Source: Candidatus Rokuibacteriota bacterium
GTDB lineage: Bacteria > Methylomirabilota > Methylomirabilia > Rokubacteriales > CSP1-6
DNA: 64,000 nt
Reading direction: 5' to 3'
Assembly: GCA_016200085.1 (NCBI GenBank)
Contig: JACQFL010000048.1
Span: 15,350 to 79,349, forward strand
The position numbers and the translations under genes were made by a program. This document shows, in pieces, positions 4,084 to 52,407 of this stretch. Below the pieces are notes generated by a model. That model worked only from the letters and a program-made list of their open reading frames with translations, was not told the origin of the DNA and did no database searches. Each line of letters begins with the position of its first letter. The first letter of the stretch is position 1.

Positions 4084-4617
4084 ATGCGGCAACGCCTCGC
4101 GCTCGTGGTTGTCGGAGGCGTGGCCGGCAGTGGGCTGTTCTGGCTGGTCCAGGTGATGACGGGCGGCCCGACCATCACCGCGTTCATGGGCGAACAGGTC
4201 GCTGCTGCCGGCGGATATCCGGCAACCCTGGCGCCCGCCTTCGGGTGGATCATCCATGTCGCCGTCGGTCTCTCGTACGCGTCACTGTTTGGGGTCGTCG
4301 TCGCCCCGCTCCGCTTGCTGCCGCGGGCCGCGCTGGCCGGAACGTCGCTCGTCATGGCAATCGTGTTCGGCTGGCTGACGACCGCCATCGCGCCGTCGGC
4401 CATCAGCGTGACGGTCGGGCTGCTCGGGCACCGGCGGTGGCCCGCCGAGATCTTTCCTTTGAATTGGGACGTCGGCTTGCCGTTCTGGAATCATCAGCTC
4501 TTCTTTCTCGCCAACTGGATCATGCAGGTGCTCGGCGGGATGGTCGTCCGTGCACGGGCGAGGTCGCGGCGGCGGAGCCTGATCACCGGGCGCGAGGGCC
4601 AGGGCGAGCGGGAATAA
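4084..4617 (+). CDS. Hypothetical integral membrane protein (4-5 TM helices)
   Basis: Hydrophobic segments. Starts 2 nt after the preceding stop. No family recognised. Confidence 0.55.
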   Translation: MRQRLALVVVGGVAGSGLFWLVQVMTGGPTITAFMGEQVAAAGGYPATLAPAFGWIIHVAVGLSYASLFGVVVAPLRLLPRAALAGTSLVMAIVFGWLTTAIAPSAISVTVGLLGHRRWPAEIFPLNWDVGLPFWNHQLFFLANWIMQVLGGMVVRARARSRRRSLITGREGQGERE

Positions 4618-5033: not shown

Positions 5034-6188
5034 ATGGTTCTGCCGCTCGCGGGTTTGATGCACGTCGTGGTTCTTGCGCGTCGCCTTCTGTTGAAAGTCG
5101 CCACGGTGTTGGTCCTCCTTCCGGCGCTTGCCATCAGTCCCGCATTCGCGCACGACGGTCCCCCCGCTGGCGCCGTCGTACCCAGCGAGCGCATCGATCC
5201 GCGCCAGGTCTATCCCTTCGGCGTCGTCGCCGGCGGGGGCGGACACTTCCACGTCCTGCAGGTCATGCCAGGGGAGCGACGCGTCTTTGCCGGCACCCAT
5301 CTGGGGCTGTTCGTGAGCGAAGACCGAGGGCTCACGTGGCGTCTCGTCGCGCCTCGCTTCAGCGGCGTCGACGTCCACGGCCTCGCACGCGATGCGGCCA
5401 CGGGAGCGTTGTATGCGGCGACCCACGGACAGGGCCTTCTCGTCAGCGAGGACGGTGGCACCCGGTGGCGGGACGGCTCGGCGAGCCTGCCCGGCCGCGA
5501 CCTGCACGCCCTCGCCCTCGATGCCCATGATCGGGGCACGATCTACGTCTGGTCCGTTGGCCATGGTCTCTTCGCTCGGCGAGGTCGCGTGCGGATGTGG
5601 GAACGCCTGGCGGGGCGAGAGGCCCTCACCCAGGTGGAGAGCCTCGCCATCCATCCACAGAATTCGCGGCGGCTCTACGCGGGAACCGCGGCCGGGGTGC
5701 TTGTCAGCGAGGACGGCGGCCGCCGGTGGATGCTACCGCCCGGCGGCCTCGAGCGTCGGACCGCCGGCGTCGCGGTCGTCCCGAGCCGGCCTGACATGGT
5801 CCTCGCCGCGACGTTCGACGGGGTCTTCGCCGGTCACGCAGCCGGCGCGGACTGGAAGCCGCTCGAGGCAGCGCCCTCGTGGTGGGGCCCGATCGTGGGG
5901 TTCGCGTTCGTCGGCGATCGGCCCGACACCGTCTTTGCCGTCTCGCACGAGGGACCGGTCGTCATGCGCGCGGTGTGGGATGGCCCCTGGATACCTCTCG
6001 CGGCGCGACCGCCGGCCACGAGTCGGCGAATCAGCGCCCGCCCTTCGGGGCCGGTCCACGAGCGCGGACCAACCGCAGTGGTGAGCACCCGGCCGTCACG
6101 GCCGATCAAAACCACGGTGGGCGTCGCCCGGACGCCATACGCCCGGGCGACCCGCATGTCGGGATCGAGCACCACGGGAGCGCTGTAG
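5034..6188 (+). CDS. BNR/Asp-box repeat (sialidase-like / Ycf48-like beta-propeller) secreted protein. The 3' end is uncertain.
   Basis: Repeated SxDxGxTW motifs (SEDRGLTW, SEDGGTRW, SEDGGRRW). Signal peptide (...KVATVLVLLPALAISPAFA). A TTG about 57 nt downstream of the ATG is an alternative start. The tail beyond about 6000 overlaps the convergent TlpA-like gene and may not be coding. Confidence 0.6.
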   Translation: MVLPLAGLMHVVVLARRLLLKVATVLVLLPALAISPAFAHDGPPAGAVVPSERIDPRQVYPFGVVAGGGGHFHVLQVMPGERRVFAGTHLGLFVSEDRGLTWRLVAPRFSGVDVHGLARDAATGALYAATHGQGLLVSEDGGTRWRDGSASLPGRDLHALALDAHDRGTIYVWSVGHGLFARRGRVRMWERLAGREALTQVESLAIHPQNSRRLYAGTAAGVLVSEDGGRRWMLPPGGLERRTAGVAVVPSRPDMVLAATFDGVFAGHAAGADWKPLEAAPSWWGPIVGFAFVGDRPDTVFAVSHEGPVVMRAVWDGPWIPLAARPPATSRRISARPSGPVHERGPTAVVSTRPSRPIKTTVGVARTPYARATRMSGSSTTGAL

Positions 6189-6553
6189 CCACGCGCCTTC
6201 ACCTCGCGGGCGACAGTCGTGGCGTCTTCACCGACATCGACGAGCACCGCGGTGAAGCCGTCCGGGGCGAGCTCCTTCGCCATCGCGTCGATCGAGGGCA
6301 ACTCCCTCGCGCAGTGCGGTCACCAGGTGGCCCAGAAATAGAGCATGACGAGATGGCCGCGGAACTGATCCAGCGACACCGTGTGCCCGGTGACGTCGCG
6401 CAGGCTGAAGGCCGGCGCCGTCACGGGCTCGGCCGCGGGCGCCACCCCCAGCGCGTCCCACAGCGCCGAGTCCGTCGTGGCACCCGCCGCGGCGGAGGCG
6501 ACGAACAGGACGCCGAGGACCACACTCGCCCAGGGGGGTCGCCGCGTGATCAC
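5834..6553 (-). CDS. TlpA/thioredoxin-like (redoxin) selenoprotein, periplasmic. In-frame TGA at 6320..6322 read as Sec (U-P-H-C). The 3' end is uncertain.
   Basis: ORFs 6320..6553 and 5834..6301 are in the same frame, separated only by a TGA: ...LVMLYFWATW-U-PHCARELPSIDAMAKELAP...ATPTVVLIGRDGRV. This is the thioredoxin WCxxC motif with the first Cys coded as UGA. Signal peptide MITRRPPWASVVLGVLFVASAAAGA. Confidence 0.65.
6293..6309 (-). other. SECIS-like hairpin downstream of the Sec-UGA of the TlpA-like gene
   Basis: UGA CCG CAC UGC G CGAGGG-AGUUG-CCCUCG. A 6-bp stem with a 5-nt loop, starting 10-11 nt after the UGA. Confidence 0.5.
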
Positions 6554-7134
6554 GCTTGAACCTCCCGCATCGAGTGGGTGGGGCGCGCTCTCACGTCGAT
6601 CGCGAGACGGCTGAGGATCTCGAGCGAGCGATCGTTGAACGGATCCACGCCGGGATTGGCGAGGCGGTGCTCGGCGAGGCGTGTGATCTTTCCCTCCTGG
6701 AGCCGCTCGATCTGGGGAGTGAACGCCTGGAATACCAGATTGACGAACCGCACGAGGCGCGCGTCACCCCGGGTTTCGTCGATGCGAAACCGACGCGCAT
6801 ACCGTTTGAGAGCCGCCCCGCTCTCGTACCGGTCTCCGATCGCCCAGAGGTTCAGGGTGAACAGCGCCTGCGGCCAGCCGTCACGCGCCATGGAGATGGC
6901 GACGAGATGCACGGTGTGATCGGGGAACAGCCTTACCGTGTGGAAATGTCCGGCCTCGTGCGTCGCGCCGTCGTGACGGTGAAAATATGACTGGCAGCCC
7001 GTGTCGCGGTCGAAGACCCCGTAGTCGTCCGGATACAAGGTCCAGGGCGTCACGTCGCGACCGCCGCAGGCGAGCTCCATCACCGTCGTGCCGTCACGCT
7101 CGAGCGCGGTGAGCAGCTGGCGAAGCTCGGTCAT
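6550..7134 (-). CDS. Hypothetical cupin-like protein (HRHDG...EAGHFH His cluster)
   Basis: Internal Met MTELRQLL of ORF 6550..7221. ATGA overlap with the downstream TlpA-like gene. Confidence 0.5.
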   Translation of the reverse strand: MTELRQLLTALERDGTTVMELACGGRDVTPWTLYPDDYGVFDRDTGCQSYFHRHDGATHEAGHFHTVRLFPDHTVHLVAISMARDGWPQALFTLNLWAIGDRYESGAALKRYARRFRIDETRGDARLVRFVNLVFQAFTPQIERLQEGKITRLAEHRLANPGVDPFNDRSLEILSRLAIDVRARPTHSMREVQA

Positions 7135-24797: not shown

Positions 24798-24827
24798 GAC
24801 CCCGCGAGGTGTATACTCCGGAGAGTC

Positions 24828-24915
24828 GTCGTGGGGGGAGGAATCCTGAGAACCGGGTGCGGCCCGGGACCCCTCGAACCTGCTCTGGATAATCCCAGCG
24901 AAGGGAACACGCCGA
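24828..24915 (+). promoter_or_regulatory. TPP (THI-box) riboswitch upstream of thiS
   Basis: ggggaggaatcCTGAGAaccgggtgcggcccgggACCCctcGAACCTGctCTGGATAATcCCAGCGaAGGGAA. The CGGCCGCGGAG immediately 5' of the thiS ATG can pair with an upstream GGCCGCG element, which would sequester the Shine-Dalgarno sequence. Confidence 0.85.
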
Positions 24916-24980
24916 CGGATCGCGGCCGCGCCCGAAGTCTCGGGACAGCGGCCGTTGCTGTTTCCGGCCGCGGAGCGGGC

Positions 24981-25182: not shown

Positions 25183-25965
25183 ATGTACGACACGTCGCTC
25201 GTCATCGGCGGCAAGGAGTTCTCGTCGCGGCTGATCGTGGGCACGGGCAAGTACTCGTCGAACGAGGTCATGCGCCAGGCCCACGAGGCCTCGGGCGCCC
25301 AGGTGGTCACCGTCGCGGTGCGCCGGGTGAGCCTGCCGGGCACCGGCGAGTCCATCCTCGACTTCATCGACACCAACCGCTACACGCTGCTCCCGAACAC
25401 CGCCGGCTGCTACACCGCGGACGAGGCCATCCGCACCGCGTACCTGGCGCGCGAGGCCGGGCTCGGCGAGATGGTCAAGCTCGAGGTCATCGGCGACTCG
25501 CGCACGCTGTTTCCCGACGTGGCCGGGCTGCTCGAGGCGACGAAGACGCTGGCGCGCGAGGGCTTCACGGTCATGCCCTACACCAACGACGACCCCGTGA
25601 TGGCCAAGCGCCTGGAAGACGCGGGGGCGGCGGTGGTCATGCCGCTCGGCGCGCCGATCGGCTCCGGGCTCGGGATCCGCAACCCGTACAACATCAAGAT
25701 CATCCTCGAGACCGTGTCGGTGCCCGTCATCGTCGATGCCGGGGTCGGCACGGCCTCGGACGCCGCCATCGCCATGGAGCTCGGCTGCGACGGCGTGCTC
25801 ATGAACACGGCCATCGCGGGCGCGCGCGACCCGGTGGCCATGGCGACGGCGATGAAGCAGGCCGTGGAAGCCGGACGGCTCGCCTTCAAGGCCGGGCGCA
25901 TGCCCAAGCGCCTCTACGCGAGCGCGTCCTCGCCGCTCGAGGGCGTGCCCGATTGGTCGAGCTGA
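25183..25965 (+). CDS. thiG: Thiazole synthase ThiG
   Basis: [24 protein letters not shown]... a full-length ThiG match. Confidence 0.9.
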
Positions 25966-29144: not shown

Positions 29145-30590
29145 ATGGCTGATCTCGCTGTCGCCCGCCCCGAGCGCTTCTTCGCCGACCGGTTCAACGT
29201 GACGCCGTCCCTGATGGAGCGGCTGCTCGGTTCCTCGCTCCGCGGGCGCGTGGACGACGCCGACGTCTACCTCGAGTACCGTATCAACGAAGAGCTGGTA
29301 CTCGAGGAAGGAACAGTCAAAAAGGCCTCTCGGCACGTCAGCCAGGGCGCCGGGGTCCGGGCCCAGGCCGGCACCCGCACGGGCTACGCCCACACCGACG
29401 ACATCTCGATCGGGAACCTCGAGGAGGCCGCACGCCAGGCGCGTTCCATCGCCGATCAGTCGAGCGCCTCGGGGATCCTCGCCGTCCCCGGCCGGCGCCC
29501 GCACGACCTCTACGCGCTGGCCGAGCCGCCCATCGTCACGGAGCTCACCCGCAAGGTCGATCTGCTCCGGCGGGTGGACCGGGCCGCGCGCGAGGCCGAT
29601 CCGCGGGTCAAGCAGGTCATCGCCAGTATTGGCAGCGAGGACGTCGTGATGCTGATCGCCACCGCGGGCGGCTGGACGGTCGGGGACGTGCGCCCGCTGG
29701 CCCGGCTCAACGTCACGGTGATCGCCGAAGAGAACGGCAAGCGCGAGATCGGGTCGTACGGCGGCGGCGGCCGCGTGGCGTTCGACTTCTTCCTCGAGCA
29801 GGATCGCTGGAGGCGCTTCGCCACCGAGGCCGCGCGCCAGGCCACCCTCAAGCTCGGCGCGCTCGACGCGCCGGCCGGCACCATGACGGTGGTGCTCGGC
29901 CCGGGCTGGCCGGGGATCCTGCTCCACGAGGCGATCGGGCACGGCCTCGAGGGTGACTTCAACCGCAAGGGCGTGTCCGCCTTCGCCGGGCGCATGGGCC
30001 AGAAGGTCGCCTCCGAGCTGGTGACGGTGATCGACGACGGGACGATCCCGAACCGCCGCGGCTCGCTCAACGTCGACGACGAGGGCACGCCCACCGGGCG
30101 CACCGTGCTCATCGAGAAGGGCGTGCTCGTGGGCTACATGCAGGACAAGCTCAACGCCCGCCTCATGGGCGCGGCCCCGACGGGCAACGGCCGCCGCGAG
30201 TCGTACGCCTATCCGGCGATGCCGCGCATGACGAACACGTTCATGCTCGCGGGGGAGGATGACCCCGAGGACATCATCCGCTCGGTCAAGCACGGGCTCT
30301 ACGCGGTGACGTTCGGCGGCGGCCAGGTCGACATCACCAGCGGCAAGTTCGTGTTCTCGGCCACCGAGGCCTACCTGATCGACGACGGACGCATCGGCGC
30401 CCCGCTGAAAGGGGCCACGCTGATCGGCAACGGGCCCGACGCCCTGACGCGGGTGAGCCGCGTGGGGCGCGACCTCGCGCTCGACGAGGGCGTGGGCACG
30501 TGCGGCAAGGACGGGCAATCCGTGCCCGTGGGCGTGGGACTGCCGACGATCCGCATCGACGGCATGACGGTCGGCGGGAGCCAGGTGTGA
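29145..30590 (+). CDS. tldD: Metalloprotease TldD
   Basis: 481 aa, canonical TldD with HEAIGHGLE-type motif. Confidence 0.9.
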   Translation: MADLAVARPERFFADRFNVTPSLMERLLGSSLRGRVDDADVYLEYRINEELVLEEGTVKKASRHVSQGAGVRAQAGTRTGYAHTDDISIGNLEEAARQARSIADQSSASGILAVPGRRPHDLYALAEPPIVTELTRKVDLLRRVDRAAREADPRVKQVIASIGSEDVVMLIATAGGWTVGDVRPLARLNVTVIAEENGKREIGSYGGGGRVAFDFFLEQDRWRRFATEAARQATLKLGALDAPAGTMTVVLGPGWPGILLHEAIGHGLEGDFNRKGVSAFAGRMGQKVASELVTVIDDGTIPNRRGSLNVDDEGTPTGRTVLIEKGVLVGYMQDKLNARLMGAAPTGNGRRESYAYPAMPRMTNTFMLAGEDDPEDIIRSVKHGLYAVTFGGGQVDITSGKFVFSATEAYLIDDGRIGAPLKGATLIGNGPDALTRVSRVGRDLALDEGVGTCGKDGQSVPVGVGLPTIRIDGMTVGGSQV

Positions 30591-31945
30591 GCGGCGTCGA
30601 TCCCGGGCTGCTCGTCTCCGTCCTGCGGCGCGCGACGGCGCGCGGGGCCACGGCGGCCGACGGCTTCCTGGTGGAGGATCGCCACTTCAGCGCCATGGTG
30701 CGGCTGGGCGAGGTCGACACGGTGACCCACTCGCAGGACCAGCGGCTCTCGCTGCGCGTCTTCTACGGGCGCGCCACCGCGGCCGCCTCGAGCTCGGATC
30801 TGTCCCCCGCCTCGCTCGAGCGCGTGGTGGACGAGGCCACCGCGCTGGCCCGCATCACCGCCGAGGACGAGCACGCGGGCCTGCCGGACCCGGCCGAGGT
30901 GATCGAGCGCGTGCCGGACCTCGACCTCGAGGACCGCGAGGCGCCGGCGCTGTCGCCCGAGGAGAAGATCGACATCGCGCGGCGGGCCGAGGCGGCCGCG
31001 CTGGCCAGCGACCCGCGCATCAGCAACTCCGAGGGCGCGGAGTCCTTCGACCGGCGCTCGCACTACGTGTACGCCGCCGCGCACGGCTCGGGTCGCGTCT
31101 TCGCGGGCGACTACGCCACCACCTCCTTCGGCATCACCTGCTCGCCGGTGGCGGCGCAGGACGGCGAGATGCAGCGGGATTCCTGGTACTCGATGGCCCG
31201 CAAGCGCGCCGGGCTGGACGACCCGGCGTCGGTGGGGCGCACGGCGGCCGCGCGCGCGCTGCGCCGCCTGGGCGCGCGCAAGGTCAAGACCACCGAGGTG
31301 CCGGTGATCTTCGATCCCGAGAACGCGGCGAGCCTGCTCCGGTCGGTCGCGGCGGCGGCCAGCGGGCCGAGCCTGTACCGCCGCGCCTCGTTCCTCGTCG
31401 AGCGCCTCGGCCAGCGCATCGCCGCCTCCGGCGTCACCATCGTGGACGACGGCCTGCGCCCGGGGGCGCTCGGCTCACGGCCGTTCGACGGCGAGGGGCT
31501 CCCGACGCGCCGCACCGCGCTCGTCGAGGACGGCGTGCTGGTGACGTACCTGCTCGACACCTACAGCGCCCGCAAGCTCGGCCTGGCCTCGACCCACCAC
31601 GGCACCCGCGACGGCGCCGGGGTGACGGTGGGGACCACCAACCTCATGCTGCTGCCGGGCACGGCCTCGCCCGACGACCTCATCGCGTCGGTCGACAACG
31701 GCTTCTACGTCACCGAGCTGATCGGCTTCGGGGTCAACGGCGTCACCGGCGACTACTCTCGCGGCGCCGTCGGGCTGTGGATCGAGAACGGCAAGCTGGC
31801 GTACCCGGTCGAGGAGGTCACGGTGGCCGGCAACCTGCTGGAGATGCTCCTGGCCATCGACGGGGTCGCCAGCGACCTCGTGCTGCGCGACCGGACCGCG
31901 GCGCCAACGCTGAAGATCGCCAAGATGGTCGTCGCGGGAGCGTGA
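30587..31945 (+). CDS. pmbA: Metalloprotease PmbA/TldE
   Basis: GTG start overlapping the tldD stop (GTGA). Typical PmbA sequence. Confidence 0.85.
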   Translation: MSGVDPGLLVSVLRRATARGATAADGFLVEDRHFSAMVRLGEVDTVTHSQDQRLSLRVFYGRATAAASSSDLSPASLERVVDEATALARITAEDEHAGLPDPAEVIERVPDLDLEDREAPALSPEEKIDIARRAEAAALASDPRISNSEGAESFDRRSHYVYAAAHGSGRVFAGDYATTSFGITCSPVAAQDGEMQRDSWYSMARKRAGLDDPASVGRTAAARALRRLGARKVKTTEVPVIFDPENAASLLRSVAAAASGPSLYRRASFLVERLGQRIAASGVTIVDDGLRPGALGSRPFDGEGLPTRRTALVEDGVLVTYLLDTYSARKLGLASTHHGTRDGAGVTVGTTNLMLLPGTASPDDLIASVDNGFYVTELIGFGVNGVTGDYSRGAVGLWIENGKLAYPVEEVTVAGNLLEMLLAIDGVASDLVLRDRTAAPTLKIAKMVVAGA

Positions 31946-46245: not shown

Positions 46246-46983
46246 ATGCCGCCCGTCCTCTCGGCCCTCGTGCTGGGCTTCGTCCTCGGCTTGCAGCACG
46301 CGACGGATCCCGATCACCTCGTGGCGGTGGCCACCATCGTCACCCGCGAGCGCCGCCTCGGGGCCGGCGCGCTCGTGGGCGCCTTCTGGGGGCTGGGCCA
46401 CACCCTGACCCTGGGCGTCGTCGGCGGACTCATCATCGCGCTCGGCCTGCGCGTGCCCGACGCGCTGGGCCGCGGGCTGGAGCTGGCGGTCGCCGCGATG
46501 CTGGTCCTGCTCGGCGCGGCGCGCCTGCGGGACGCGCTGCGGGGCTGGGGCGCCGTCGACCGCGCGCACATCGTGGCCGATCACGAGCACGACGGTCACG
46601 AGGCCTTCCACAGCCATGGCCACGAGCACGGTGACCTGCGCCACGGCCATCCCCACGTGCATCCCTCGCGCGCGCTCGTCGACGCGCTGCGCGAGCGCCG
46701 GCCGGGCGCCCGGGCGTTCGTCGTGGGGATCGTGCACGGCCTGGCCGGCAGCGCGGCCGTCGCGCTCCTCGTGCTGACGACGCTGCGCTCCCCCTGGGCC
46801 GCCGCGCTCTATCTCCTCATCTTCGGCGCGGGCACCGTCGCGGGGATGACCGCGCTCACCGGCGCCATGGCGCTGCCGGTGACGCTCGCGCTCCGGCTCC
46901 GCTGGGCGCCGCGGGCGCTCGCCTTCGGCGCGGGGGTGGGTTCGGTGGCGTTCGGCGTCGTCTACGCCGTGCGCCTGCTCTAG
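46246..46983 (+). CDS. Nickel/cobalt transporter of the NiCoT/RcnA type (HX4DH signature, His-rich loop)
   Basis: GLQHATDPDHLVAV signature. Loop HEHDGHEAFHSHGHEHGDLRHGHPHVHP. Confidence 0.7.
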   Translation: MPPVLSALVLGFVLGLQHATDPDHLVAVATIVTRERRLGAGALVGAFWGLGHTLTLGVVGGLIIALGLRVPDALGRGLELAVAAMLVLLGAARLRDALRGWGAVDRAHIVADHEHDGHEAFHSHGHEHGDLRHGHPHVHPSRALVDALRERRPGARAFVVGIVHGLAGSAAVALLVLTTLRSPWAAALYLLIFGAGTVAGMTALTGAMALPVTLALRLRWAPRALAFGAGVGSVAFGVVYAVRLL

Positions 46984-47572: not shown

Positions 47573-49135
47573 TCAGGCGTCCAGCGAGTCCATGAAGCCG
47601 GCGATCTGCTCGACGCGCACGCCCGAGACCGCGATCTCCGGCGCGTAGATCACCTCGTCGGCCGCCCACACGATCGTGCCCTTGGCCTCTCTCGTCACGC
47701 CCATGACGTTCTCGAGCACGGTGGCGATGTTGTCGTTGATACGCAGCGCGTTGGCGCGCAGGGGCGCCGCCAGGCGGCCGTCGCGGATGACCCAGGAGTC
47801 GCCGACCACGGTGCAGGTGAAGTCGCCGGCGCGCAGGCCGTTGACCGGGTACGTGTACCAGATCCGGCCGACGTAGAGGCCGTCGCGCACCGTGCGGATC
47901 AGCTCCTCGAGGCTCACGGCCTCCGCGCCCTGCACCACCACGTTGGAGGCCGCCACGCCGGGGCCGCGGTCGAACTGGCGGCCGCCGCCGGCGCCGAAGC
48001 GGAAGCCGTTGCGCGGCACGAGCGCCCGCGCGGCCTCGTCGCCCGTCGCGCCGAGCTTGGCGGCCAGCGCCGGGTCGCGCAGCAGGCGCTGGGTCTGGTA
48101 CCAGCTGGACAGGCAGCCGACGAGCACGCCGTCCCTGATCAGGTCGGTGCGTCCCGTCGGCAGGCCCTCGCACGTGATGCCCTTGGAGCCGGTGTAGCCG
48201 GGGACGTTGCCCGCGTCCCAGACGCTCAGGCGCGGCGAGGCCACCTGCCGGCCGAGGCGGCCGAGGAACGGCGTGTTCGAGGCGTAGAAGGTGCCGGCGG
48301 AGCAGGCGGGCACGATGACGTTGTTGAGCAGGTCGCTGACCGGCTGCTTGCCGAAGATGACCGTGTACTCGCCCGAGGGCACGCGCTCGCCGCCGACGGC
48401 GGCGATGGCGTTGCCCGCCGCCTCGATGCCGGCCTCGTCGGAGAACTCCTCGAGGCGCGTGCCCGTCGACCAGCCCGAGCCCTTGGCGTCGCGCGCTTCC
48501 ACCATCGCCGTCACGAACGCCGTGATCAGGGTGGACTCGTCCGTCTGCGCCTCGGGCATGCGCGTCGAGACGATGGCGATGCGCTCCTGGAGGATCGTGA
48601 CGTCGCCGCCGAGGATGAGCCCCAGCGCGCGCAGCGCCTCGTCGCTGCCCGCCAGCTCCGCCAGCCTGGACGAGGCGAGGAAGGTGCGGAGCGCGCCGTT
48701 GACGATCGTCCAGCCCGCGCCCACGAGGGCCTCGTCGTCGATGGCCAGGAGCCTCGGGTCGGCGTAGTCCGTGAGGGTGCGCCGCTCGCGCGCCGGCTCG
48801 GGCAGGGAGACGAAGTCCGGATCGCGCACCGCCGCGGCGCGCGCCTTGTCGAGCGCGCGGCGGGCGCCCGCCTCGCCGAGGTCGGTGGGCTCGCTGCCGA
48901 AGCCGACCACCGGGCCCTGGGGCCCGTCGAAGACCACGTGGAGGCCGAGGCCCGAGGACTCGTCGGACTTCGGCTCCTCGACCCCGTTCGAGGGGATGTG
49001 CGAGGTGTAGCAGAGCCGGGTGAGCAGGCTCGCGTTCGAGGCGACGAAGACCTCGACCTCGCGCACGCCGGGCGCCCGGCGCGCGCCCTCGAAGGCGATG
49101 CGCGCGGCGCGCTCGAGCTCGGTCAGGGTCCGCAC
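47573..49135 (-). CDS. TldD/PmbA-family metallopeptidase homolog (divergent, 520 aa)
   Basis: TldD/PmbA fold, lacking a signal peptide. GAGGTGA Shine-Dalgarno sequence overlapping the upstream rhodanese stop. GTG start. Confidence 0.75.
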   Translation of the reverse strand: MRTLTELERAARIAFEGARRAPGVREVEVFVASNASLLTRLCYTSHIPSNGVEEPKSDESSGLGLHVVFDGPQGPVVGFGSEPTDLGEAGARRALDKARAAAVRDPDFVSLPEPARERRTLTDYADPRLLAIDDEALVGAGWTIVNGALRTFLASSRLAELAGSDEALRALGLILGGDVTILQERIAIVSTRMPEAQTDESTLITAFVTAMVEARDAKGSGWSTGTRLEEFSDEAGIEAAGNAIAAVGGERVPSGEYTVIFGKQPVSDLLNNVIVPACSAGTFYASNTPFLGRLGRQVASPRLSVWDAGNVPGYTGSKGITCEGLPTGRTDLIRDGVLVGCLSSWYQTQRLLRDPALAAKLGATGDEAARALVPRNGFRFGAGGGRQFDRGPGVAASNVVVQGAEAVSLEELIRTVRDGLYVGRIWYTYPVNGLRAGDFTCTVVGDSWVIRDGRLAAPLRANALRINDNIATVLENVMGVTREAKGTIVWAADEVIYAPEIAVSGVRVEQIAGFMDSLDA

Positions 49136-49139
49136 GGCG

Positions 49140-49559
49140 TCACCTCGCGGGCGTGCCCGCCGCGCGGCCCTCGACGGGGTAGCCCTTCTCCTGCCAGCCC
49201 GGCAGGCCCTCGTCGAGCACCTTGTGGTTCCGCCACCCCATCGCGTACAGCATGTTGCTGGCCCCCCGGGACAGCGCGTGGGGGCAGCCTCAGTAGAAGA
49301 CGGCGAGCCCCGTCTTCGTGATCTCGCCGGCGCGCTCGGGCACCGCGCGCAGCGGCATCGAGCGCGCGCCCTTGATGTGCAGCTCCGCGTACTCGGCCCA
49401 GTGGCGCACGTCGATGATGTCCGCCTTCGTGCCCGCGGCGAGGGCGGCGTGCAGCTCGGCGACCTTGATGAAGGCCACGGGGGACTCGGGCGGCGCCGCG
49501 GGCGCGGCGCCCAGCAGCACGCCGGCCGCGGCGAGCACGGGGATCAGGGTGCGGCGCAT
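49140..49559 (-). CDS. Periplasmic single-domain rhodanese (sulfurtransferase) selenoprotein. In-frame TGA at 49290..49292 at the active-site Cys position (VFY-U-GCPHALSRG).
   Basis: Signal peptide MRRTLIPVLAAAGVLLGAAPAAP. The rhodanese core (ADIIDVRHWAEYAELHIKGARSMPL...) runs up to the TGA. The same frame continues for 49 more codons through the rest of the domain (GASNMLYAMGWRNHKVLDEGLPGWQEKGYPV) to a TGA at 49140. It sits between two TldD/PmbA-like genes with 4-nt gaps. Confidence 0.65.
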
Positions 49560-49563
49560 GGGG

Positions 49564-51126
49564 CTAGCCTCCGAGGATCCGGGCGCGGCTGCGCATGGTA
49601 GGCCCGCCGTTGCCGAGCTTCTTGACCTGCATGGGCTGGCCCTTGCCACAGTTGGGGATGGGGTAGAGCGTGAAGTCGGAGCCCACGGCGTCGACGTTGA
49701 GAAGATAGTCGCGCGTGTCAGCGGCGATGCCGCCGTCGCGGTAGACCTGCCCCAGCTCGCCGTGCACGATCTCGTACACGCGGCGCGCCGAGATGCGGAA
49801 GTTCTCGCGGCTCTCGGCGATGGACGGCGTGCGGTGACCGCACACGTACCAGCCGCGGTCGACCTCGCGGATCATCTCTGCGGCCTCGCGGTCGCCGCCC
49901 GCGAAGACCGTGTTCGACATCCGGATCAGCGGCACCAGCGAGGCCTCGGTGGCCTTGAAGTGGCCGTTGGGCGCGCCCCCGAAGATCGCCGCGGTCTGGC
50001 GGCTGTTCATGAAGCCCTGGAAGATCCCGCGATCGATGTGCACCACGCGCCGCGCGGGCGTGCCCTCGTGGTCGTAGGCGTAATGGCCATAGCCGGGGAG
50101 CGCGGGGTCGGAGAAGGCGGTGACCAGCGGCGAGGCCACGCGCTTGCCGACCTGGTGCTGGTCGAGCCCGCGCAGCAACCAGGAGCGCCCGGCATACGCG
50201 GTCTCCATCTTGAGCGCGCGATCGAGCTCGACGGGGTGGCCGATGATCTCGTGGGACACGAGCGTGTTGTAGTGCGGATCGGTGACCACGACGACCTCGC
50301 GGTCCGACGAGGGCAGTACCGGCGCCTCGGCCATCTCGCCCGCCTCGCGCGCAAGATCGAGGGCGAGATCGACGAAGGGCGGGAAGCGGATCCACGGCTC
50401 GCTGACCCCGGTGGCGAGGATCTCCCAGCCGCGCTGATGGCCGGCCGCGTCGGAGATCCCGTGGCTCGTGGAGCCCGAGACCCCGACGGCGCTCACCCAG
50501 CCCTGGGTCAGCGCGAAGGACTGGTCGATCAGGCTGCCCTCGCTGGAGGCGAAGAGCTCGCGCGAGAGCTGGGTGAGCACGCCGATGTAGTTGTAGGACA
50601 CGCGCGGATCGCGCCCCGCGACCTGGCGCGAGACGTCGACGGCGTAGCGCACCATCTCGCCGAGCGGCATCGCGCGGGGGTCGATCGCGTACTCGGCGGC
50701 CACCGTGTCCTCCCGGACCTCGACGGGATGCAGGCGCGTGTCGGCCAGCGCGGCGCCGAGGGGACCGTGCTTGCCGCGCGCCTGGGCCTTCATCTCGGCG
50801 TTGACCCACGCCCGGCGGTAGGCGCGCTCCAGCGCCGCGCGGATAAGCCGCTCGAGGTCGGGGAGATCGGCGGCGCCGAGCGCCTGACCCATCCAGCCGG
50901 CCGCCACCGCGCGGTCGCCCGCGAGCACGCGGACCCCGAGGGCCAGCGTCGCGTCCTCGCCCGCGTACCGCGCGGCACCGTTCTCCGCCCCGGCGGACTT
51001 CGCCTCGGTGACCTCAAGGCGCAGGTCCGCATAGCGCAGGTGCGGCAGCCGCCCGGCAGCGTTGCGGAGGAGGTCACGCGCGCTGGACTTCACCGAGTCG
51101 AGATGGTCAACGCGTATCGGTGCCAC
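49564..51126 (-). CDS. TldD/PmbA-family metallopeptidase homolog (divergent, 520 aa)
   Basis: GAAAGGAG Shine-Dalgarno sequence and GTG start. TldD/PmbA fold. Confidence 0.75.
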   Translation of the reverse strand: MAPIRVDHLDSVKSSARDLLRNAAGRLPHLRYADLRLEVTEAKSAGAENGAARYAGEDATLALGVRVLAGDRAVAAGWMGQALGAADLPDLERLIRAALERAYRRAWVNAEMKAQARGKHGPLGAALADTRLHPVEVREDTVAAEYAIDPRAMPLGEMVRYAVDVSRQVAGRDPRVSYNYIGVLTQLSRELFASSEGSLIDQSFALTQGWVSAVGVSGSTSHGISDAAGHQRGWEILATGVSEPWIRFPPFVDLALDLAREAGEMAEAPVLPSSDREVVVVTDPHYNTLVSHEIIGHPVELDRALKMETAYAGRSWLLRGLDQHQVGKRVASPLVTAFSDPALPGYGHYAYDHEGTPARRVVHIDRGIFQGFMNSRQTAAIFGGAPNGHFKATEASLVPLIRMSNTVFAGGDREAAEMIREVDRGWYVCGHRTPSIAESRENFRISARRVYEIVHGELGQVYRDGGIAADTRDYLLNVDAVGSDFTLYPIPNCGKGQPMQVKKLGNGGPTMRSRARILGG

Positions 51127-51213: not shown

Positions 51214-52407
51214 TCAAAACGGCTCGACGAGCACCGCTTCGCCCTCGGCGACGTCGCCGCGCTCTTCCTCCAGGATCACCAGGCAGTTGCCGACGACCAT
51301 CGAGCTGAGGATGCCGGAGCCCTGGGGCCCGGTGGTGCGCACGGACCAGCCGCCGTCGGCGTAGCGCAGGACCCCGCGCTTGAACTCGCGGCGGCCGGCT
51401 TTCTTGCTCATGGGCTCGGCGGCGCGGGCGAGGAACGTCTCGGGGAAGAGGCGGCGGCGGCCGGCGAGCTTGTAGAGGGCCGGACGCACGAAGAGCATGA
51501 ACGTCAGCATGGAGGCGACGGGATTGCCGGGCAGGCCGAAGAAGTGCGCGGCGCCGATGCGGCCGACCGCGAGCGGGCGGCCCGGCTGCATGGCGACCTG
51601 CCAGAAGTCGACGCCGCCGATCTCGCCCAGGACCTCCTTGACCAGGTCATAGACGCCGACGGAGACCCCGCCCGAGGTCAGCACCACGTCGGCGATGCGG
51701 CCCGCGTCGAGCAGGCGCGCGCGCAGGTCCTCCTTGCGGTCGGGCACGATGCCGAGGTCCGTCACCGAGGCGCCGCACTCCTCGGCCAGCCCACGCAGGG
51801 TGAAGCGGTTGGCGTCGTAGATCTGGCCGGGCGTGCGCTGGGTGCCGGGCTCGGCCACCTCGTCGCCGGTCGAGAGGACGGCCACGCGCGGGCGCTGGCG
51901 CACCAGCACCTGGCGCGCCCCGAGGGAGGCCACGAGGCCGAGCTCCTGGGCGCGCAGCACGGTGCCGCGCTCCACCACGATGACGCCGGCGGTGACGTCC
52001 TCGCCCCGGCGGCGCACGTTCGCGCCCTTGGCGATGGCCACGATCCGCACGCGCGCCCCCGCGCGCTCGACGATCTCCTGCGGCAGCACGGTGTCGGCGC
52101 CGACGGGCATCGGGGCGCCAGTCATGATACGCACGGATTGCCCGGGCGCCAGGGTGCCCCCGAACACGGAGCCGGCGGGGAGATCGGCGACGACGTCGAG
52201 CTCGCGTGTGCCGCTCGCGGGAACGTCGGCGCTGGTGACGGCGTAGCCGTCGACGGCGGAGTTGTCGGCGGGCGGCACGTCGAAGGGCGCGTGCACGTCC
52301 TCCGCGAGCACGCGGCCGCGCGCGTCGACGAGCGCGACGAACTCGGGCGGGGCGACGGCGGTGACCCGGGCCAGGATGTGATTTTGGCCATCCCGCACCG
52401 AAATCAT
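51214..52407 (-). CDS. moeA: Molybdopterin molybdotransferase MoeA
   Basis: Full-length MoeA with the MoCF-binding domain (GGVSVG). Confidence 0.85.
   Translation of the reverse strand: MISVRDGQNHILARVTAVAPPEFVALVDARGRVLAEDVHAPFDVPPADNSAVDGYAVTSADVPASGTRELDVVADLPAGSVFGGTLAPGQSVRIMTGAPMPVGADTVLPQEIVERAGARVRIVAIAKGANVRRRGEDVTAGVIVVERGTVLRAQELGLVASLGARQVLVRQRPRVAVLSTGDEVAEPGTQRTPGQIYDANRFTLRGLAEECGASVTDLGIVPDRKEDLRARLLDAGRIADVVLTSGGVSVGVYDLVKEVLGEIGGVDFWQVAMQPGRPLAVGRIGAAHFFGLPGNPVASMLTFMLFVRPALYKLAGRRRLFPETFLARAAEPMSKKAGRREFKRGVLRYADGGWSVRTTGPQGSGILSSMVVGNCLVILEEERGDVAEGEAVLVEPF

What the first reader, a model, noticed from the sequence alone, without database searches (positions are those of the whole stretch)
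49140..49559. Periplasmic single-domain rhodanese with UGA at the catalytic Cys position (VFY-U-GCPHALSRG)
The rhodanese domain follows a clear signal peptide and runs into a TGA at the point where the active-site cysteine loop begins. The frame continues for 49 codons through the rest of the domain (GASNMLYAMGWRNHKVLDEGLPGWQEKGYPV) to a TGA at 49140. That stop lies 5 nt upstream of the downstream gene's GTG start at 49135 and overlaps its Shine-Dalgarno sequence. The U is followed by G-C, so a selenenylsulfide could form. GC-rich pairing (GCUGCCCCC…GGGGGGCCAGC) directly follows the UGA. Sec-containing rhodanese-like sulfurtransferases are a recognised but rare class. One with an export signal is unusual.
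Basis: partly seen in the sequence, partly recalled or inferred. Interest (0 to 1): 0.85.

Follow-up and report, generated by a model that had tools for sequence, protein, structure and literature searches.

The report
Exported selenocysteine rhodanese, mis-annotated as truncated
This is almost certainly a real gene for a small exported rhodanese enzyme whose active-site residue is selenocysteine, encoded by a "stop" codon, so public databases record only a truncated 89-residue fragment; it is a new sub-type of a known class of selenoproteins.

Summary
On the minus strand, an ORF (ATG 49559) runs into TGA 49292..49290 in the middle of a rhodanese domain and continues in frame for 49 codons to TGA 49142..49140.

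Evidence that the TGA encodes selenocysteine:
- 106 of 107 orthologous or paralogous loci from Rokubacteria/Methylomirabilota carry TGA at exactly this codon. Their true stop varies (TGA/TAG/TAA).
- The 41 codons after the TGA have dN/dS 0.20, against 0.36 upstream.
- More distant homologues have Cys here (YCxCP). A paralogue family has both TGC and TGA forms.
- A 17-nt hairpin (49274..49258, G-K-G loop) starts 15 nt after the UGA. Its codons are frozen at synonymous sites and three of its pairs show compensatory changes.
- In the paralogue, only the Sec form has this hairpin.

Sec sits at the canonical catalytic position, and a clade-conserved Cys lies two residues later (UxC). The catalogued relative NF041203 is CxU, and our protein scores below its cutoff. 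GenBank annotates the gene as an 89-aa protein.

Conserved gene order is MoeA, TldD-like, Sec-rhodanese, PmbA-like. The biochemical function is inferred, not shown.

The parts
49140..49559 (-). Complete coding sequence of the selenoprotein rhodanese: 139 aa (89 + Sec + 49) plus the true stop TGA at 49142..49140.
   Evidence: In-frame conservation across 57 genomes. dN/dS 0.20 downstream of the TGA.
49290..49292 (-). In-frame UGA read as selenocysteine (residue 90), at the canonical catalytic position of the rhodanese fold.
   Evidence: TGA in 106/107 loci. Cys in distant homologues. TGC/TGA pair in the paralogue. Aligned to the catalytic Cys of 6mxv and 1yt8.
49284..49286 (-). Cys92 (TGC), the conserved second residue of the U-x-C pair.
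   Evidence: Invariant in all orthologues and nearly invariant in CxC homologues.
49258..49274 (-). Putative SECIS hairpin CUGUCCC-GGG-GGGCCAG. It starts 15 nt 3' of the UGA and has a G-K-G loop at 49267..49265. The window copy has a U.C mismatch.
   Evidence: Synonymous sites frozen: mean codon entropy 0.19 bit against 1.04, 0/200000 permutations. Compensatory changes in 3 of 7 pairs. The hairpin is present in Sec forms of the paralogue and absent from Cys forms.
49494..49559 (-). Predicted signal peptide or membrane anchor: MRR, then a 16-residue hydrophobic stretch, then AAPA|AP. A Pro-rich linker follows.
   Evidence: Read from the sequence. Homologues have equivalent N-termini with AxA-type sites. 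The AF2 model has pLDDT of about 47-50 over the first 20 residues and about 71 over residues 21-30. No signal-peptide predictor was available.
49185..49460 (-). Rhodanese domain (Pfam PF00581, residues 34-125).
   Evidence: AF2 model of orthologue P0001 has core pLDDT >94. Foldseek top hits are single-domain rhodaneses: 3nhv, 3ilm, YgaP.
49564..51126 (-). Upstream gene: divergent TldD-like metalloprotease (520 aa) that keeps HEIIGH. Its TAG stop lies 4 nt before the rhodanese ATG.
   Evidence: Conserved upstream neighbour in 56 of 57 related loci.
47573..49135 (-). Downstream gene: divergent PmbA/TldE-like protein (520 aa). Its GTG start lies 4 nt after the rhodanese stop.
   Evidence: Conserved downstream neighbour in 52 of 57 loci; the five without it are four contigs that end just after the rhodanese and L014.
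51214..52407 (-). MoeA (molybdopterin molybdenumtransferase), first gene of the conserved same-strand block.
   Evidence: Found in 53 of the 57 related loci. Directly precedes the rhodanese in L014, which lacks the protease pair.

Best explanation
Supported by comparative sequence analysis here (no experiment):
- The gene at 49559..49140 (minus strand) encodes a 139-residue pre-protein.
- Its UGA at 49292..49290 is translated, not used as a stop.
- The residue inserted sits at the canonical catalytic position of a single rhodanese domain.

Strongly inferred:
- The inserted residue is selenocysteine, delivered by SelB/Sec-tRNA(Sec).
- Delivery is directed by a 17-nt stem-loop (49274..49258). 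It starts 15 nt after the UGA and presents a G-(G/U)-G apical loop 22 nt downstream of the UGA.

Inferred:
- An N-terminal Sec-type signal peptide sends the domain to the periplasm.
- There, Sec90 and the clade-conserved Cys92 (U-x-C-P-H loop) act as a redox pair able to close into a selenenylsulfide.
- The protein therefore works as a two-chalcogen redox or transfer catalyst (sulfane sulfur, selenium or a soft metal), not as a plain one-cysteine persulfide carrier.
- It is co-transcribed and probably translationally coupled with a divergent TldD-like/PmbA-like protease pair.
For: Conservation of the UGA and the downstream frame:
- TGA at the same codon in 57/57 species-level genomes and in 106/107 loci overall.
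- The true stop varies among TGA, TAG and TAA.
- dN/dS after the TGA is 0.20 (0.16 without the hairpin codons), against 0.36 before it.

Rhodanese identity:
- The Pfam rhodanese match spans the TGA.
- The AF2 model is confident, and its Foldseek hits are rhodaneses.

Sec/Cys correspondence:
- The U position aligns with the catalytic Cys of solved rhodaneses.
- It aligns with the first Cys of YCxCP in 16 of the 23 more distant full-length homologues aligned.
- A paralogue family has TGC forms (L071, L076) and TGA forms (L077-L082) with an identical neighbouring peptide.

SECIS hairpin:
- Six codons (CTG KCC CGK GGG GCC AGC) are nearly invariant at synonymous sites: GGG 55/55, AGC 55/55, GCC 55/56, and Arg is only CGG or CGT. 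Mean codon entropy is 0.19 bit against 1.04 +/- 0.30 elsewhere, with 0 of 200,000 permutations as low.
- Compensatory double changes occur at pairs 30-42 (GC to CG, L083 and L123), 33-39 (CG to UA, L124) and 34-38 (CG to AU, paralogue). 2/500 shuffles reach this number of pairs and 0/500 reach the cell count or covariation score.
- The competing RNAalifold structure has no compensatory change.
- Sec forms of the paralogue use the codons AGT TTG, which build the hairpin (-7.4 kcal/mol). Cys forms use AGC CTC for the same amino acids and lose it (-3.0 and 0 kcal/mol).
- The loop lies at nt 26-28, counted from the U of UGA. The unrelated CxU rhodanese of L058 has its GUG loop at the same position.

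Sec use in this organism and phylum:
- A second in-frame TGA in the window lies in a WxPHC thioredoxin-fold gene that has its own hairpin.
- The literature reports Sec use in Methylomirabilota, including a MAG predicted to carry 63 selenoprotein genes (PMC13188914; PMC13582414).

Operon: 4-nt intergenic gaps on both sides and conserved gene order.
Against: - No tRNA-Sec was found by ARAGORN in the 64-kb window. No selA/B/D was seen among the roughly 15 window ORFs scanned, but the other ORFs were not checked. The Sec machinery of this genome therefore rests on the literature for the phylum and on a second candidate gene.
- The window's own hairpin has a U.C mismatch and folds weakly (-4.9 kcal/mol).
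- Local folds are not better than shuffled sequence in this 70% GC context (z = 0.14 and -0.22).
- RNAalifold prefers another pairing.
- One short metagenome contig has AGA (Arg) instead of TGA.
- One genome (L026) has a TAG 16 codons after the TGA.
- Export, the redox-pair chemistry and any link to the protease pair are inferred from sequence and context only. L014 shows the rhodanese persisting without the protease genes.
Confidence: 0.85

Rival explanations
1. The UGA is a genuine stop. The gene makes the 89-residue protein annotated in GenBank, and the downstream 49 codons are untranslated spacer.
For: This is how every gene caller and GenBank treat it: 89 aa, MBI1845696.1 / MBI3827384.1. 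Local RNA folding is not statistically unusual.
Against: - An 89-residue product ends at the last residue of the central beta-strand. It lacks the active-site loop and the C-terminal third of the fold.
- The downstream 41 codons have dN/dS 0.20, lower than the upstream part, and stay in frame in all loci.
- The true stop varies while the internal TGA never does.
- Homologues with Cys read straight through.
Confidence: 0.02
2. The UGA is read through, but not as selenocysteine. Possibilities are near-cognate Trp/Cys/Arg insertion, a reassigned UGA, or a recently inactivated pseudogene.
For: The Sec machinery was not seen in the window. One contig has AGA (Arg) at this codon.
Against: - UGA is not reassigned. 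It is the true stop of this gene in the window and in most orthologues.
- A pseudogene would not keep the same TGA in 106 of 107 loci with low dN/dS.
- The position is Cys in homologues, which is the classic Sec/Cys pair.
- The codons downstream are constrained as RNA and covary as a hairpin whose spacing and G-K-G loop fit bacterial SECIS elements.
- The AGA contig still has the compensated hairpin, which points to a recent change or an assembly error.
Confidence: 0.04
3. Functional rival: the [C/U]-x-C rhodanese clade is not a sulfurtransferase. It is a periplasmic soft-metal (copper) handling or metal-redox protein, with the UxC/CxC pair as ligand or reductant.
For: Relatives sit next to copper or metal genes in several independent contexts:
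- SCO1/SenC lies 277 nt upstream of the rhodanese, with one small ORF between them (L072).
- CusF overlaps the rhodanese start by 4 nt (L074).
- A BufA1(DUF2282)/MbnB-like/HvfC cluster lies upstream, and a Fur-family regulator follows downstream: overlapping the read-through stop in L077 and L080-L082, about 170-200 nt after the rhodanese stop in L076 and L078 (L076-L082).
- CopD lies near the L014 copy.
In addition, a NicO/His-rich transporter lies 600 nt downstream in the window, and UxC is a listed motif of a Cu/Zn efflux selenoprotein (PMC13188914).
Against: - Only a handful of contexts were examined, most on short contigs.
- In the window's own locus the neighbours are MoeA and TldD/PmbA-like genes, not copper genes.
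- U sits at the catalytic position of a fold whose known chemistry is sulfur, selenium or arsenate transfer.
Confidence: 0.25
4. The TldD-like, Sec-rhodanese and PmbA-like genes form one functional machine. For example, the protease pair might process the conserved N-terminal GAAPAAPP segment, or the rhodanese might serve a peptide-modification pathway.
For: - 4-nt gaps on both sides.
- The order is conserved wherever the contig is long enough, in 52-56 of 57 loci.
- The pair is a divergent extra copy alongside a canonical TldD/PmbA pair in the same window.
- The GAAPAAPP[DE] segment is unusually conserved for a signal-peptide c-region.
Against: - All the loci come from one clade in which flanking unrelated genes (RDD, SDR) are also syntenic, so the conserved order is weak evidence.
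- L014 keeps MoeA and the rhodanese without the protease pair.
- Paralogues and Cys homologues lack TldD/PmbA neighbours.
- The proteases have no signal peptides, whereas the rhodanese appears to be exported.
- No paper links the two.
Confidence: 0.12

Closest known systems
[quoted passage not shown]
   Same: Small single-domain rhodanese. It has two chalcogen residues spaced by one residue at the end of the central strand, followed by Pro. It is the best NCBIfam hit for the window protein. Its relative in L058 also has a signal peptide and a hairpin with a GUG loop at the same distance from the UGA.
   Different: Sec and Cys are swapped: U-x-C here, C-x-U there. The window protein scores 43.8 bits against a cutoff of 115, so it is not a member by NCBI's criterion.
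Rhodanese-like selenoproteins forms 1, 2 and 4 (UxxS / UxxG; 'rhodanese-related sulfurtransferase' of the Sargasso Sea and GOS surveys)
   Same: Sec replaces the catalytic Cys of a rhodanese domain and is encoded by UGA with a downstream bacterial SECIS (PMC13188914; PMC1088965).
   Different: Those have the ordinary C-x-x-G-type loop with a single chalcogen. This one has a second conserved Cys at +2 and P-H after it. No UxC rhodanese form is listed in the 2026 table.
Single-domain rhodaneses GlpE / PspE / YgaP (E. coli) and the structural-genomics rhodaneses 3nhv and 3ilm
   Same: Same fold and size. The helix after the loop aligns well (SRGASNMLYAMGW against SKGAAQYLLQQGY of GlpE, the latter recalled from memory). 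PspE is periplasmic (own knowledge). Hits.
   Different: Those use one Cys and a 6-residue loop. By sequence alignment, the loop here is one residue longer and contains Sec plus Cys.
Bacterial SECIS elements (E. coli fdhF type; bSECISearch model)
   Same: A stem-loop inside the coding region shortly after the UGA, with G then U/G in a small apical loop. The loop lies 22 nt after the UGA, within the 16-37 nt range I recall for the bSECISearch model (own knowledge). The hairpin is 17 nt long, like the minimal fdhF element.
   Different: The spacer is 15 nt rather than 11. The loop is G-G-G or G-U-G. About half of the orthologues carry a U.C mismatch in mid-stem. No Rfam family was matched.
TlpA/Redoxin-type UxxC selenoproteins
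   Same: Exported thiol/selenol redox proteins of the same phylum. One candidate lies in the same window at 6322..6320.
   Different: A different fold (thioredoxin) and a different spacing (UxxC).

Membership tests
Bacterial selenoprotein gene | In-frame UGA conserved among orthologues while the true stop varies | tested here: met
   TGA in 57/57 genomes and 106/107 loci. True stops are TGA, TAG or TAA.
Bacterial selenoprotein gene | Sequence downstream of the UGA is protein-coding and under purifying selection | tested here: met
   dN/dS 0.20 downstream against 0.36 upstream. The Pfam domain spans the UGA.
Bacterial selenoprotein gene | Homologues carry Cys at the position of the UGA | tested here: met
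   YCxCP in distant homologues. TGC against TGA within one paralogue family.
Bacterial selenoprotein gene | SECIS stem-loop shortly 3' of the UGA with G/U in the apical loop | tested here: met
   Hairpin at 49274..49258: frozen synonymous sites, 3 compensated pairs, present only in Sec forms of the paralogue. Caveats: thermodynamic z-scores are not significant and the window copy has a U.C mismatch.
Bacterial selenoprotein gene | Genome encodes selA, selB, selC (tRNA-Sec) and selD | not testable with these tools
   No tRNA in the window. Only 64 kb of this genome is available. Indirect support: a second candidate selenoprotein in the window, and published Sec use in Methylomirabilota.
Bacterial selenoprotein gene | Selenium actually incorporated at the UGA | not testable with these tools
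   Needs 75Se labelling or mass spectrometry.
Rhodanese homology domain (PF00581) | Sequence match above the Pfam gathering score, and the alpha/beta rhodanese fold | tested here: met
   53.4 bits against 22.2. AF2 core pLDDT >94. Foldseek hits to 3nhv, 3ilm, YgaP and 1yt8 with probability 1.00.
Rhodanese homology domain (PF00581) | Catalytic Cys (here Sec) as the first residue of the loop after the central beta-strand | tested here: met
   The model has a strand at 85-89, a loop at 90-94 and a helix at 95-106. HMMER aligns U with the Cys of FYCGGGFRS in 6mxv and with the Cys of 1yt8 domain 4.
NF041203 rhodanese_LYCAU (CxU form) | Score at or above the curated cutoff of 115 bits; motif L-Y-C-A-U | tested here: not met
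   43.8 bits. The motif here is F-Y-U-x-C.
Sec-pathway exported protein | n-region with positive charge, hydrophobic h-region, AxA-type cleavage site | tested here: inconclusive
   MRR + TLIPVLAAAGVLLGAA + AAPA|AP, read from the sequence. Homologues have similar N-termini. No predictor or experiment was available, and an uncleaved anchor is not excluded.
TldD/TldE (PmbA) protease pair | Two paralogous subunits; the TldD subunit carries HExxxH; scores above the NCBIfam equivalog cutoffs | tested here: inconclusive
   Pfam PmbA_TldD_3rd E of about 1e-35 for both genes, and HEIIGH is present in the TldD-like gene. NCBIfam scores are far below the cutoffs (119 against 635; 30 against 438). The pair belongs to the superfamily but is not a TldD/PmbA equivalog.

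The most novel reading that the evidence does not exclude
The [C/U]-x-[C/U] exported rhodaneses are a distinct functional class, not sulfurtransferases. They would be periplasmic selenol/thiol redox or soft-metal (copper) handling proteins. Either position of the pair can be upgraded to Sec (UxC in Rokubacteria, CxU in the LYCAU family). In Rokubacteria this class would have been recruited into a dedicated module with a divergent TldD/TldE-like protease pair and MoeA.
Probability: 0.2. Interest if true: 0.7.

Novelty: new variant of a known kind. Interest (0 to 1): 0.5.

Why it matters
- Annotation. This gene is recorded as an 89-aa fragment, and more than 100 of the public protein entries listed end at the same residue (89-91 aa), out of 840 hits. 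The family is invisible to function prediction and to selenoproteome counts, in a phylum already reported to hold the largest bacterial selenoproteome.
- Mechanism. UxC here and CxU in the LYCAU relatives, plus TGC/TGA pairs inside one paralogue family, form a natural experiment on which member of a two-chalcogen rhodanese site benefits from selenium.
- SECIS. In the paralogue, the Sec form builds the hairpin purely by synonymous codon choice and the Cys form lacks it. This is a clean illustration of how a SECIS arises inside a coding sequence, and it gives a lineage-specific SECIS template (6-7 bp stem, G-K-G loop at nt 26-28).
- Function. Recurring copper/metal gene neighbours and the TldD/PmbA-like pair suggest testable roles for a rhodanese sub-class of unknown function.

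Tried and rejected
Neither has compensatory changes, and variation breaks the RNAalifold structure (L124 and the paralogue), whereas hairpin 28-34/38-44 is compensated.
- Thermodynamic significance of local folds: uninformative in this GC-rich sequence.
- Rfam: no SECIS family hit; the only hit is a TPP riboswitch elsewhere.
- tRNA-Sec in the window: none.
- C(X)5R arsenate-reductase/Cdc25 reading of CPHALSR: dropped, because the Arg is not conserved in Cys homologues.
- Tat export: the RR is not invariant (RG, SR and RA variants) and the n-region is only 3 residues, so Sec-type export is preferred.
Orthologue P0001 was modelled instead.
- Homologue search with the TldD-like protein: the 120 listed hits are all close orthologues (72-100% identity; those that carry a source name are mostly Rokubacteria/Methylomirabilota), so it says nothing about more distant contexts.
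- Literature search for rhodanese or selenoprotein with TldD/PmbA: nothing relevant. 'Bufferin' matched 'buffering'. Haft & Tolstoy 2025 is not held. Deng et al. (ref. 66 of PMC13188914) could not be read, so prior listing of this exact family cannot be excluded.
Full report
**1. Observation**

All features below are on the minus strand.
- A TldD-like gene ends with TAG at 49566..49564.
- Four bases later an ORF starts at ATG 49559, with a GGAGG Shine-Dalgarno sequence at 49572..49568.
- After 89 codons (…TGLAVFY) the ORF meets TGA at 49292..49290.
- The same frame stays open for 49 more codons, GCPHALSRGASNMLYAMGWRNHKVLDEGLPGWQEKGYPVEGRAAGTPAR, up to TGA at 49142..49140.
- Four bases later, the GTG at 49135 starts a PmbA-like gene.

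With the TGA bridged, Pfam Rhodanese matches residues 34-125 (E 3.8e-14), so the domain spans the stop codon.

**2. Is the UGA translated?**

A protein search returned 840 relatives.
- 110 of the 120 listed are 89-91 residues long, so they end where ours does.
- The identical protein is GenBank MBI1845696.1 / MBI3827384.1, an 89-aa "rhodanese-like domain-containing protein" from a Candidatus Rokubacteria MAG.

I fetched the DNA of 57 species-level representatives, nearly all labelled Rokubacteria/Methylomirabilota (two are labelled Acidoferrum and Binatia, three 'uncultured bacterium').
- Every one has TGA at this codon.
- Each is followed by x-C-P-H-A-[LM]-[SA]-R-G-A-S…GWRN…LDEGLPGW…GYPV.G in frame.
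- The real stop is TGA, TAG or TAA.

Adding 42 metagenome loci and a paralogue gives 106 TGA in 107 loci. The single exception is AGA, on an 836-nt contig.

Nei-Gojobori dN/dS is 0.36 for the 64 codons before the TGA. It is 0.20 for the 41 codons after it, or 0.16 without the hairpin codons. It is 0.87 for the variable C-terminal tail. The segment after the UGA is therefore translated and constrained. Termination, pseudogenisation and chance are excluded.

**3. Is it Sec?**

*(a) Sec/Cys correspondence.*
- A search of 1.8 billion cluster representatives with the full-length relative P0001 found single-domain homologues at 27-50% identity to the window protein. All have signal-peptide-like N-termini and the motif Y-C-x-C-[PS] exactly here.
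- The closest of them, the P0123/P0274 family (VVVYCACPHHLASLAYGKL), has sister genes in Methylomirabilota that read VVLY-TGA-ACPHHLASLAYGKL (L077-L082).

*(b) RNA signal.*
- In a codon-aware alignment of 56 orthologues, the six codons CTG-KCC-CGK-GGG-GCC-AGC are almost frozen at synonymous positions. These are positions +6 to +11 after the UGA.
- Counts are GGG 55/55, AGC 55/55, GCC 55/56, CTG 51/52, and Arg only as CGG or CGT. Elsewhere in the gene the same amino acids use GGC, CGC and TCS freely.
- Mean codon entropy is 0.19 bit, against 1.04 ± 0.30 for the other 56 columns of at least four-fold degeneracy. None of 200,000 permutations was as low.
- These 17 nt form the hairpin CUGKCC(C)-GKG-(G)GGCCAG.
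- On 95 distinct sequences, three of its seven pairs show compensatory double changes:
  - G30-C42 to C-G in L083 and L123;
  - C33-G39 to U-A in L124;
  - C34-G38 to A-U in the paralogue.
- Only 2 of 500 shuffles reach that number of pairs, and 0 of 500 reach the cell count or covariation score.
- The paralogue is the most telling case. Its Sec forms encode Ser-Leu as AGT TTG, giving GGCCA-GUU-UGGCC (-7.4 kcal/mol). Its Cys forms encode the same two residues as AGC CTC and have no hairpin.

*(c) Geometry.*
- The loop lies at nt 26-28, counted from the U of UGA.
- A CxU rhodanese from a Blastocatellia genome (L058) has an 8-bp stem with a GUG loop at the same nt 26-28.
- The window's second candidate has a 6-bp stem with an AGUUG loop at nt 20-24.

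*(d) Lineage.*
- The window contains another in-frame TGA, in an exported TlpA/Redoxin-like gene (LYFWATW-U-PHC, 6322..6320). Pfam matches of about 1e-25 run across the codon.
- A 2026 review reports a Methylomirabilota MAG predicted to carry 63 selenoprotein genes (PMC13188914).
- Sec-type [NiFeSe] hydrogenases are also reported in the phylum (PMC13582414).

*Not shown:* the selA/B/C/D genes of this genome, because the window has no tRNA, and selenium in the protein.

**4. Anatomy of the protein**

- Residues 1-22 (MRR-TLIPVLAAAGVLLGAA-PAAP) look like a Sec-type signal peptide with an A-x-A site. A conserved Pro-rich linker (PPESPV) follows. Equivalent N-termini occur throughout the clade.
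- An AF2 model of orthologue P0001 has mean pLDDT 83.7 and a core above 94. It shows a disordered N-terminus, then a rhodanese fold with a strand at 85-89, a loop at 90-94 (U/R-T-C-P-N) and a helix at 95-106.
- Its Foldseek neighbours are single-domain rhodaneses: 3nhv, 3ilm, YgaP and 1yt8.
- HMMER aligns the U with the active-site Cys of 6mxv and of 1yt8 domain 4, with a one-residue insertion in our loop.
- Sec therefore occupies the canonical nucleophile position. Cys92 is a second, clade-conserved residue.
- Relatives have CxC, UxC (here) or CxU (NF041203 "LYCAU"; L058). Either member can be Sec, as in thioredoxin-type UxxC/CxxU families. This argues for a redox pair (selenenylsulfide), not a lone persulfide carrier. 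This step is inference.

**5. Context**

- The order MoeA, TldD-like, Sec-rhodanese, PmbA-like holds in nearly all loci that are long enough. In this window the gaps on either side of the rhodanese gene are only 4 nt; in most orthologues the genes are also close, although PmbA-like matches starting at query residue 1 begin 3-132 nt after the rhodanese match.
- The two protease-like genes are divergent extra copies. Their NCBIfam scores are far below the equivalog cutoffs, and the TldD-like gene keeps HEIIGH. A canonical TldD/PmbA pair sits at 29145..31945 in the same window.
- Flanking unrelated genes (RDD, SDR) are also syntenic across the clade.
- One locus (L014) has MoeA and the rhodanese without the protease pair. 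A functional coupling is therefore possible but unproven.
- Relatives outside this arrangement lie next to SCO1 and CusF. Others have a BufA1/MbnB-like/HvfC cluster upstream (beyond a divergent HAMP-guanylate cyclase gene) and a Fur-type regulator just downstream. CopD lies near the L014 copy. This hints at periplasmic copper or metal stress. I keep that as a functional rival, not a conclusion.

**6. Comparison with what is known**

- Sec-containing rhodaneses have been known since the Sargasso Sea survey (PMC1088965).
- The 2026 review lists five forms: UxxS, UxxG, CxU (NF041203), UxxG and TsoB (UxxxxU). None is UxC.
- The window protein's best NCBIfam hit is NF041203, at 43.8 bits against a cutoff of 115. 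It is a relative, not a member.
- No paper in the library links rhodanese or selenoproteins with TldD/PmbA.
- I could not read the groundwater-MAG study (ref. 66 of the review), which may already list this family among its candidates.

**7. Verdict**

- It is a new variant (UxC, exported, Rokubacteria-wide) of a known kind of selenoprotein, systematically mis-annotated as a truncated protein.
- Confidence that the UGA is decoded as Sec is about 0.9.
- Confidence in export is about 0.7.
- Confidence in the redox-pair mechanism is about 0.5.
- The physiological substrate is unknown.
- Interest is moderate (0.5). It is solid and useful for annotation and for Sec/Cys and SECIS evolution, but not surprising in a phylum already known to be selenoprotein-rich.

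Noticed in passing
window 6320..6322 (-), gene roughly 6560..5836 (-): Second candidate selenoprotein: an exported TlpA/Redoxin-like thioredoxin-fold gene with an in-frame TGA in the motif LYFWATW-U-PHC. Pfam AhpC-TSA/Redoxin matches of about 1e-25 span the codon. The hairpin CGAGGG-AGUUG-CCCUCG at 6309..6293 starts 10 nt after the UGA.
   Followed up: partly
window 29145..30590 (+) and 30500..31945 (+): A canonical TldD/PmbA pair with strong matches to all three Pfam domains. The pair flanking the rhodanese is therefore an additional, divergent copy.
   Followed up: partly
L076-L082 (e.g. L077 6001..6498): A paralogous exported rhodanese family in Methylomirabilota has both Cys (TGC) and Sec (TGA) forms, VV[VL]Y-[C/U]-ACPHHLASLAYGKL. 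A Fur-family regulator follows it, overlapping the read-through stop codon (L077, L080-L082) or lying 170-200 nt downstream (L076, L078). On the other side it is divergent from a HAMP-guanylate cyclase and a BufA1(DUF2282)/MbnB-like/HvfC cluster. The Sec forms are annotated as a 95-aa fragment, in most loci followed by a separate 53-61-aa ORF.
   Followed up: partly
L072 2..439; L074 2..307; L014 5419..6987 (-): Cys-type and Sec-type relatives of the rhodanese lie next to copper genes: SCO1/SenC, CusF (with a 4-nt overlap) and CopD. This suggests a copper-related role for the [C/U]xC rhodanese clade.
   Followed up: partly
L058 around 4190 (Blastocatellia MAG JAXDFO010000107.1): A signal-peptide-bearing rhodanese with ITYCS-TGA-PNEH (CxU). 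It has a conserved downstream frame and an 8-bp hairpin with a GUG loop at nt 26-28 from the UGA. It scores 65 bits against NF041203 (cutoff 115).
   Followed up: partly
L014 2730..4420: A copy of the Sec-rhodanese directly follows MoeA, without the TldD-like/PmbA-like genes. Another contig of the same MAG (L032) has TldD-like plus the rhodanese. This reflects strain heterogeneity or two loci.
   Followed up: partly
L083 537..620 (protein P0001): The only relative with a sense codon at the Sec position has AGA (Arg). It still keeps the hairpin with a compensated pair (CUCGCC…GGCGAG). This is either a recent mutation or an assembly error on an 836-nt contig.
   Followed up: yes
L026 about 4265..4320: One orthologue has a TAG 16 codons after the Sec codon (…SDILY*). 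This is a probable pseudogene or sequencing error.
   Followed up: no
window 24824..24924 (+): A TPP riboswitch (Rfam RF00059, 56.3 bits) lies about 260 nt upstream of ThiG (25183..25965).
   Followed up: no
window 46246..46983 (+): A membrane protein with a His-rich loop (HEHDGHEAFHSHGHEHGDLRHGHPHVHP) and weak NicO/DsbD_2 matches, likely a metal transporter. It lies 600 nt beyond the PmbA-like gene and is present in 9 related loci.
   Followed up: no
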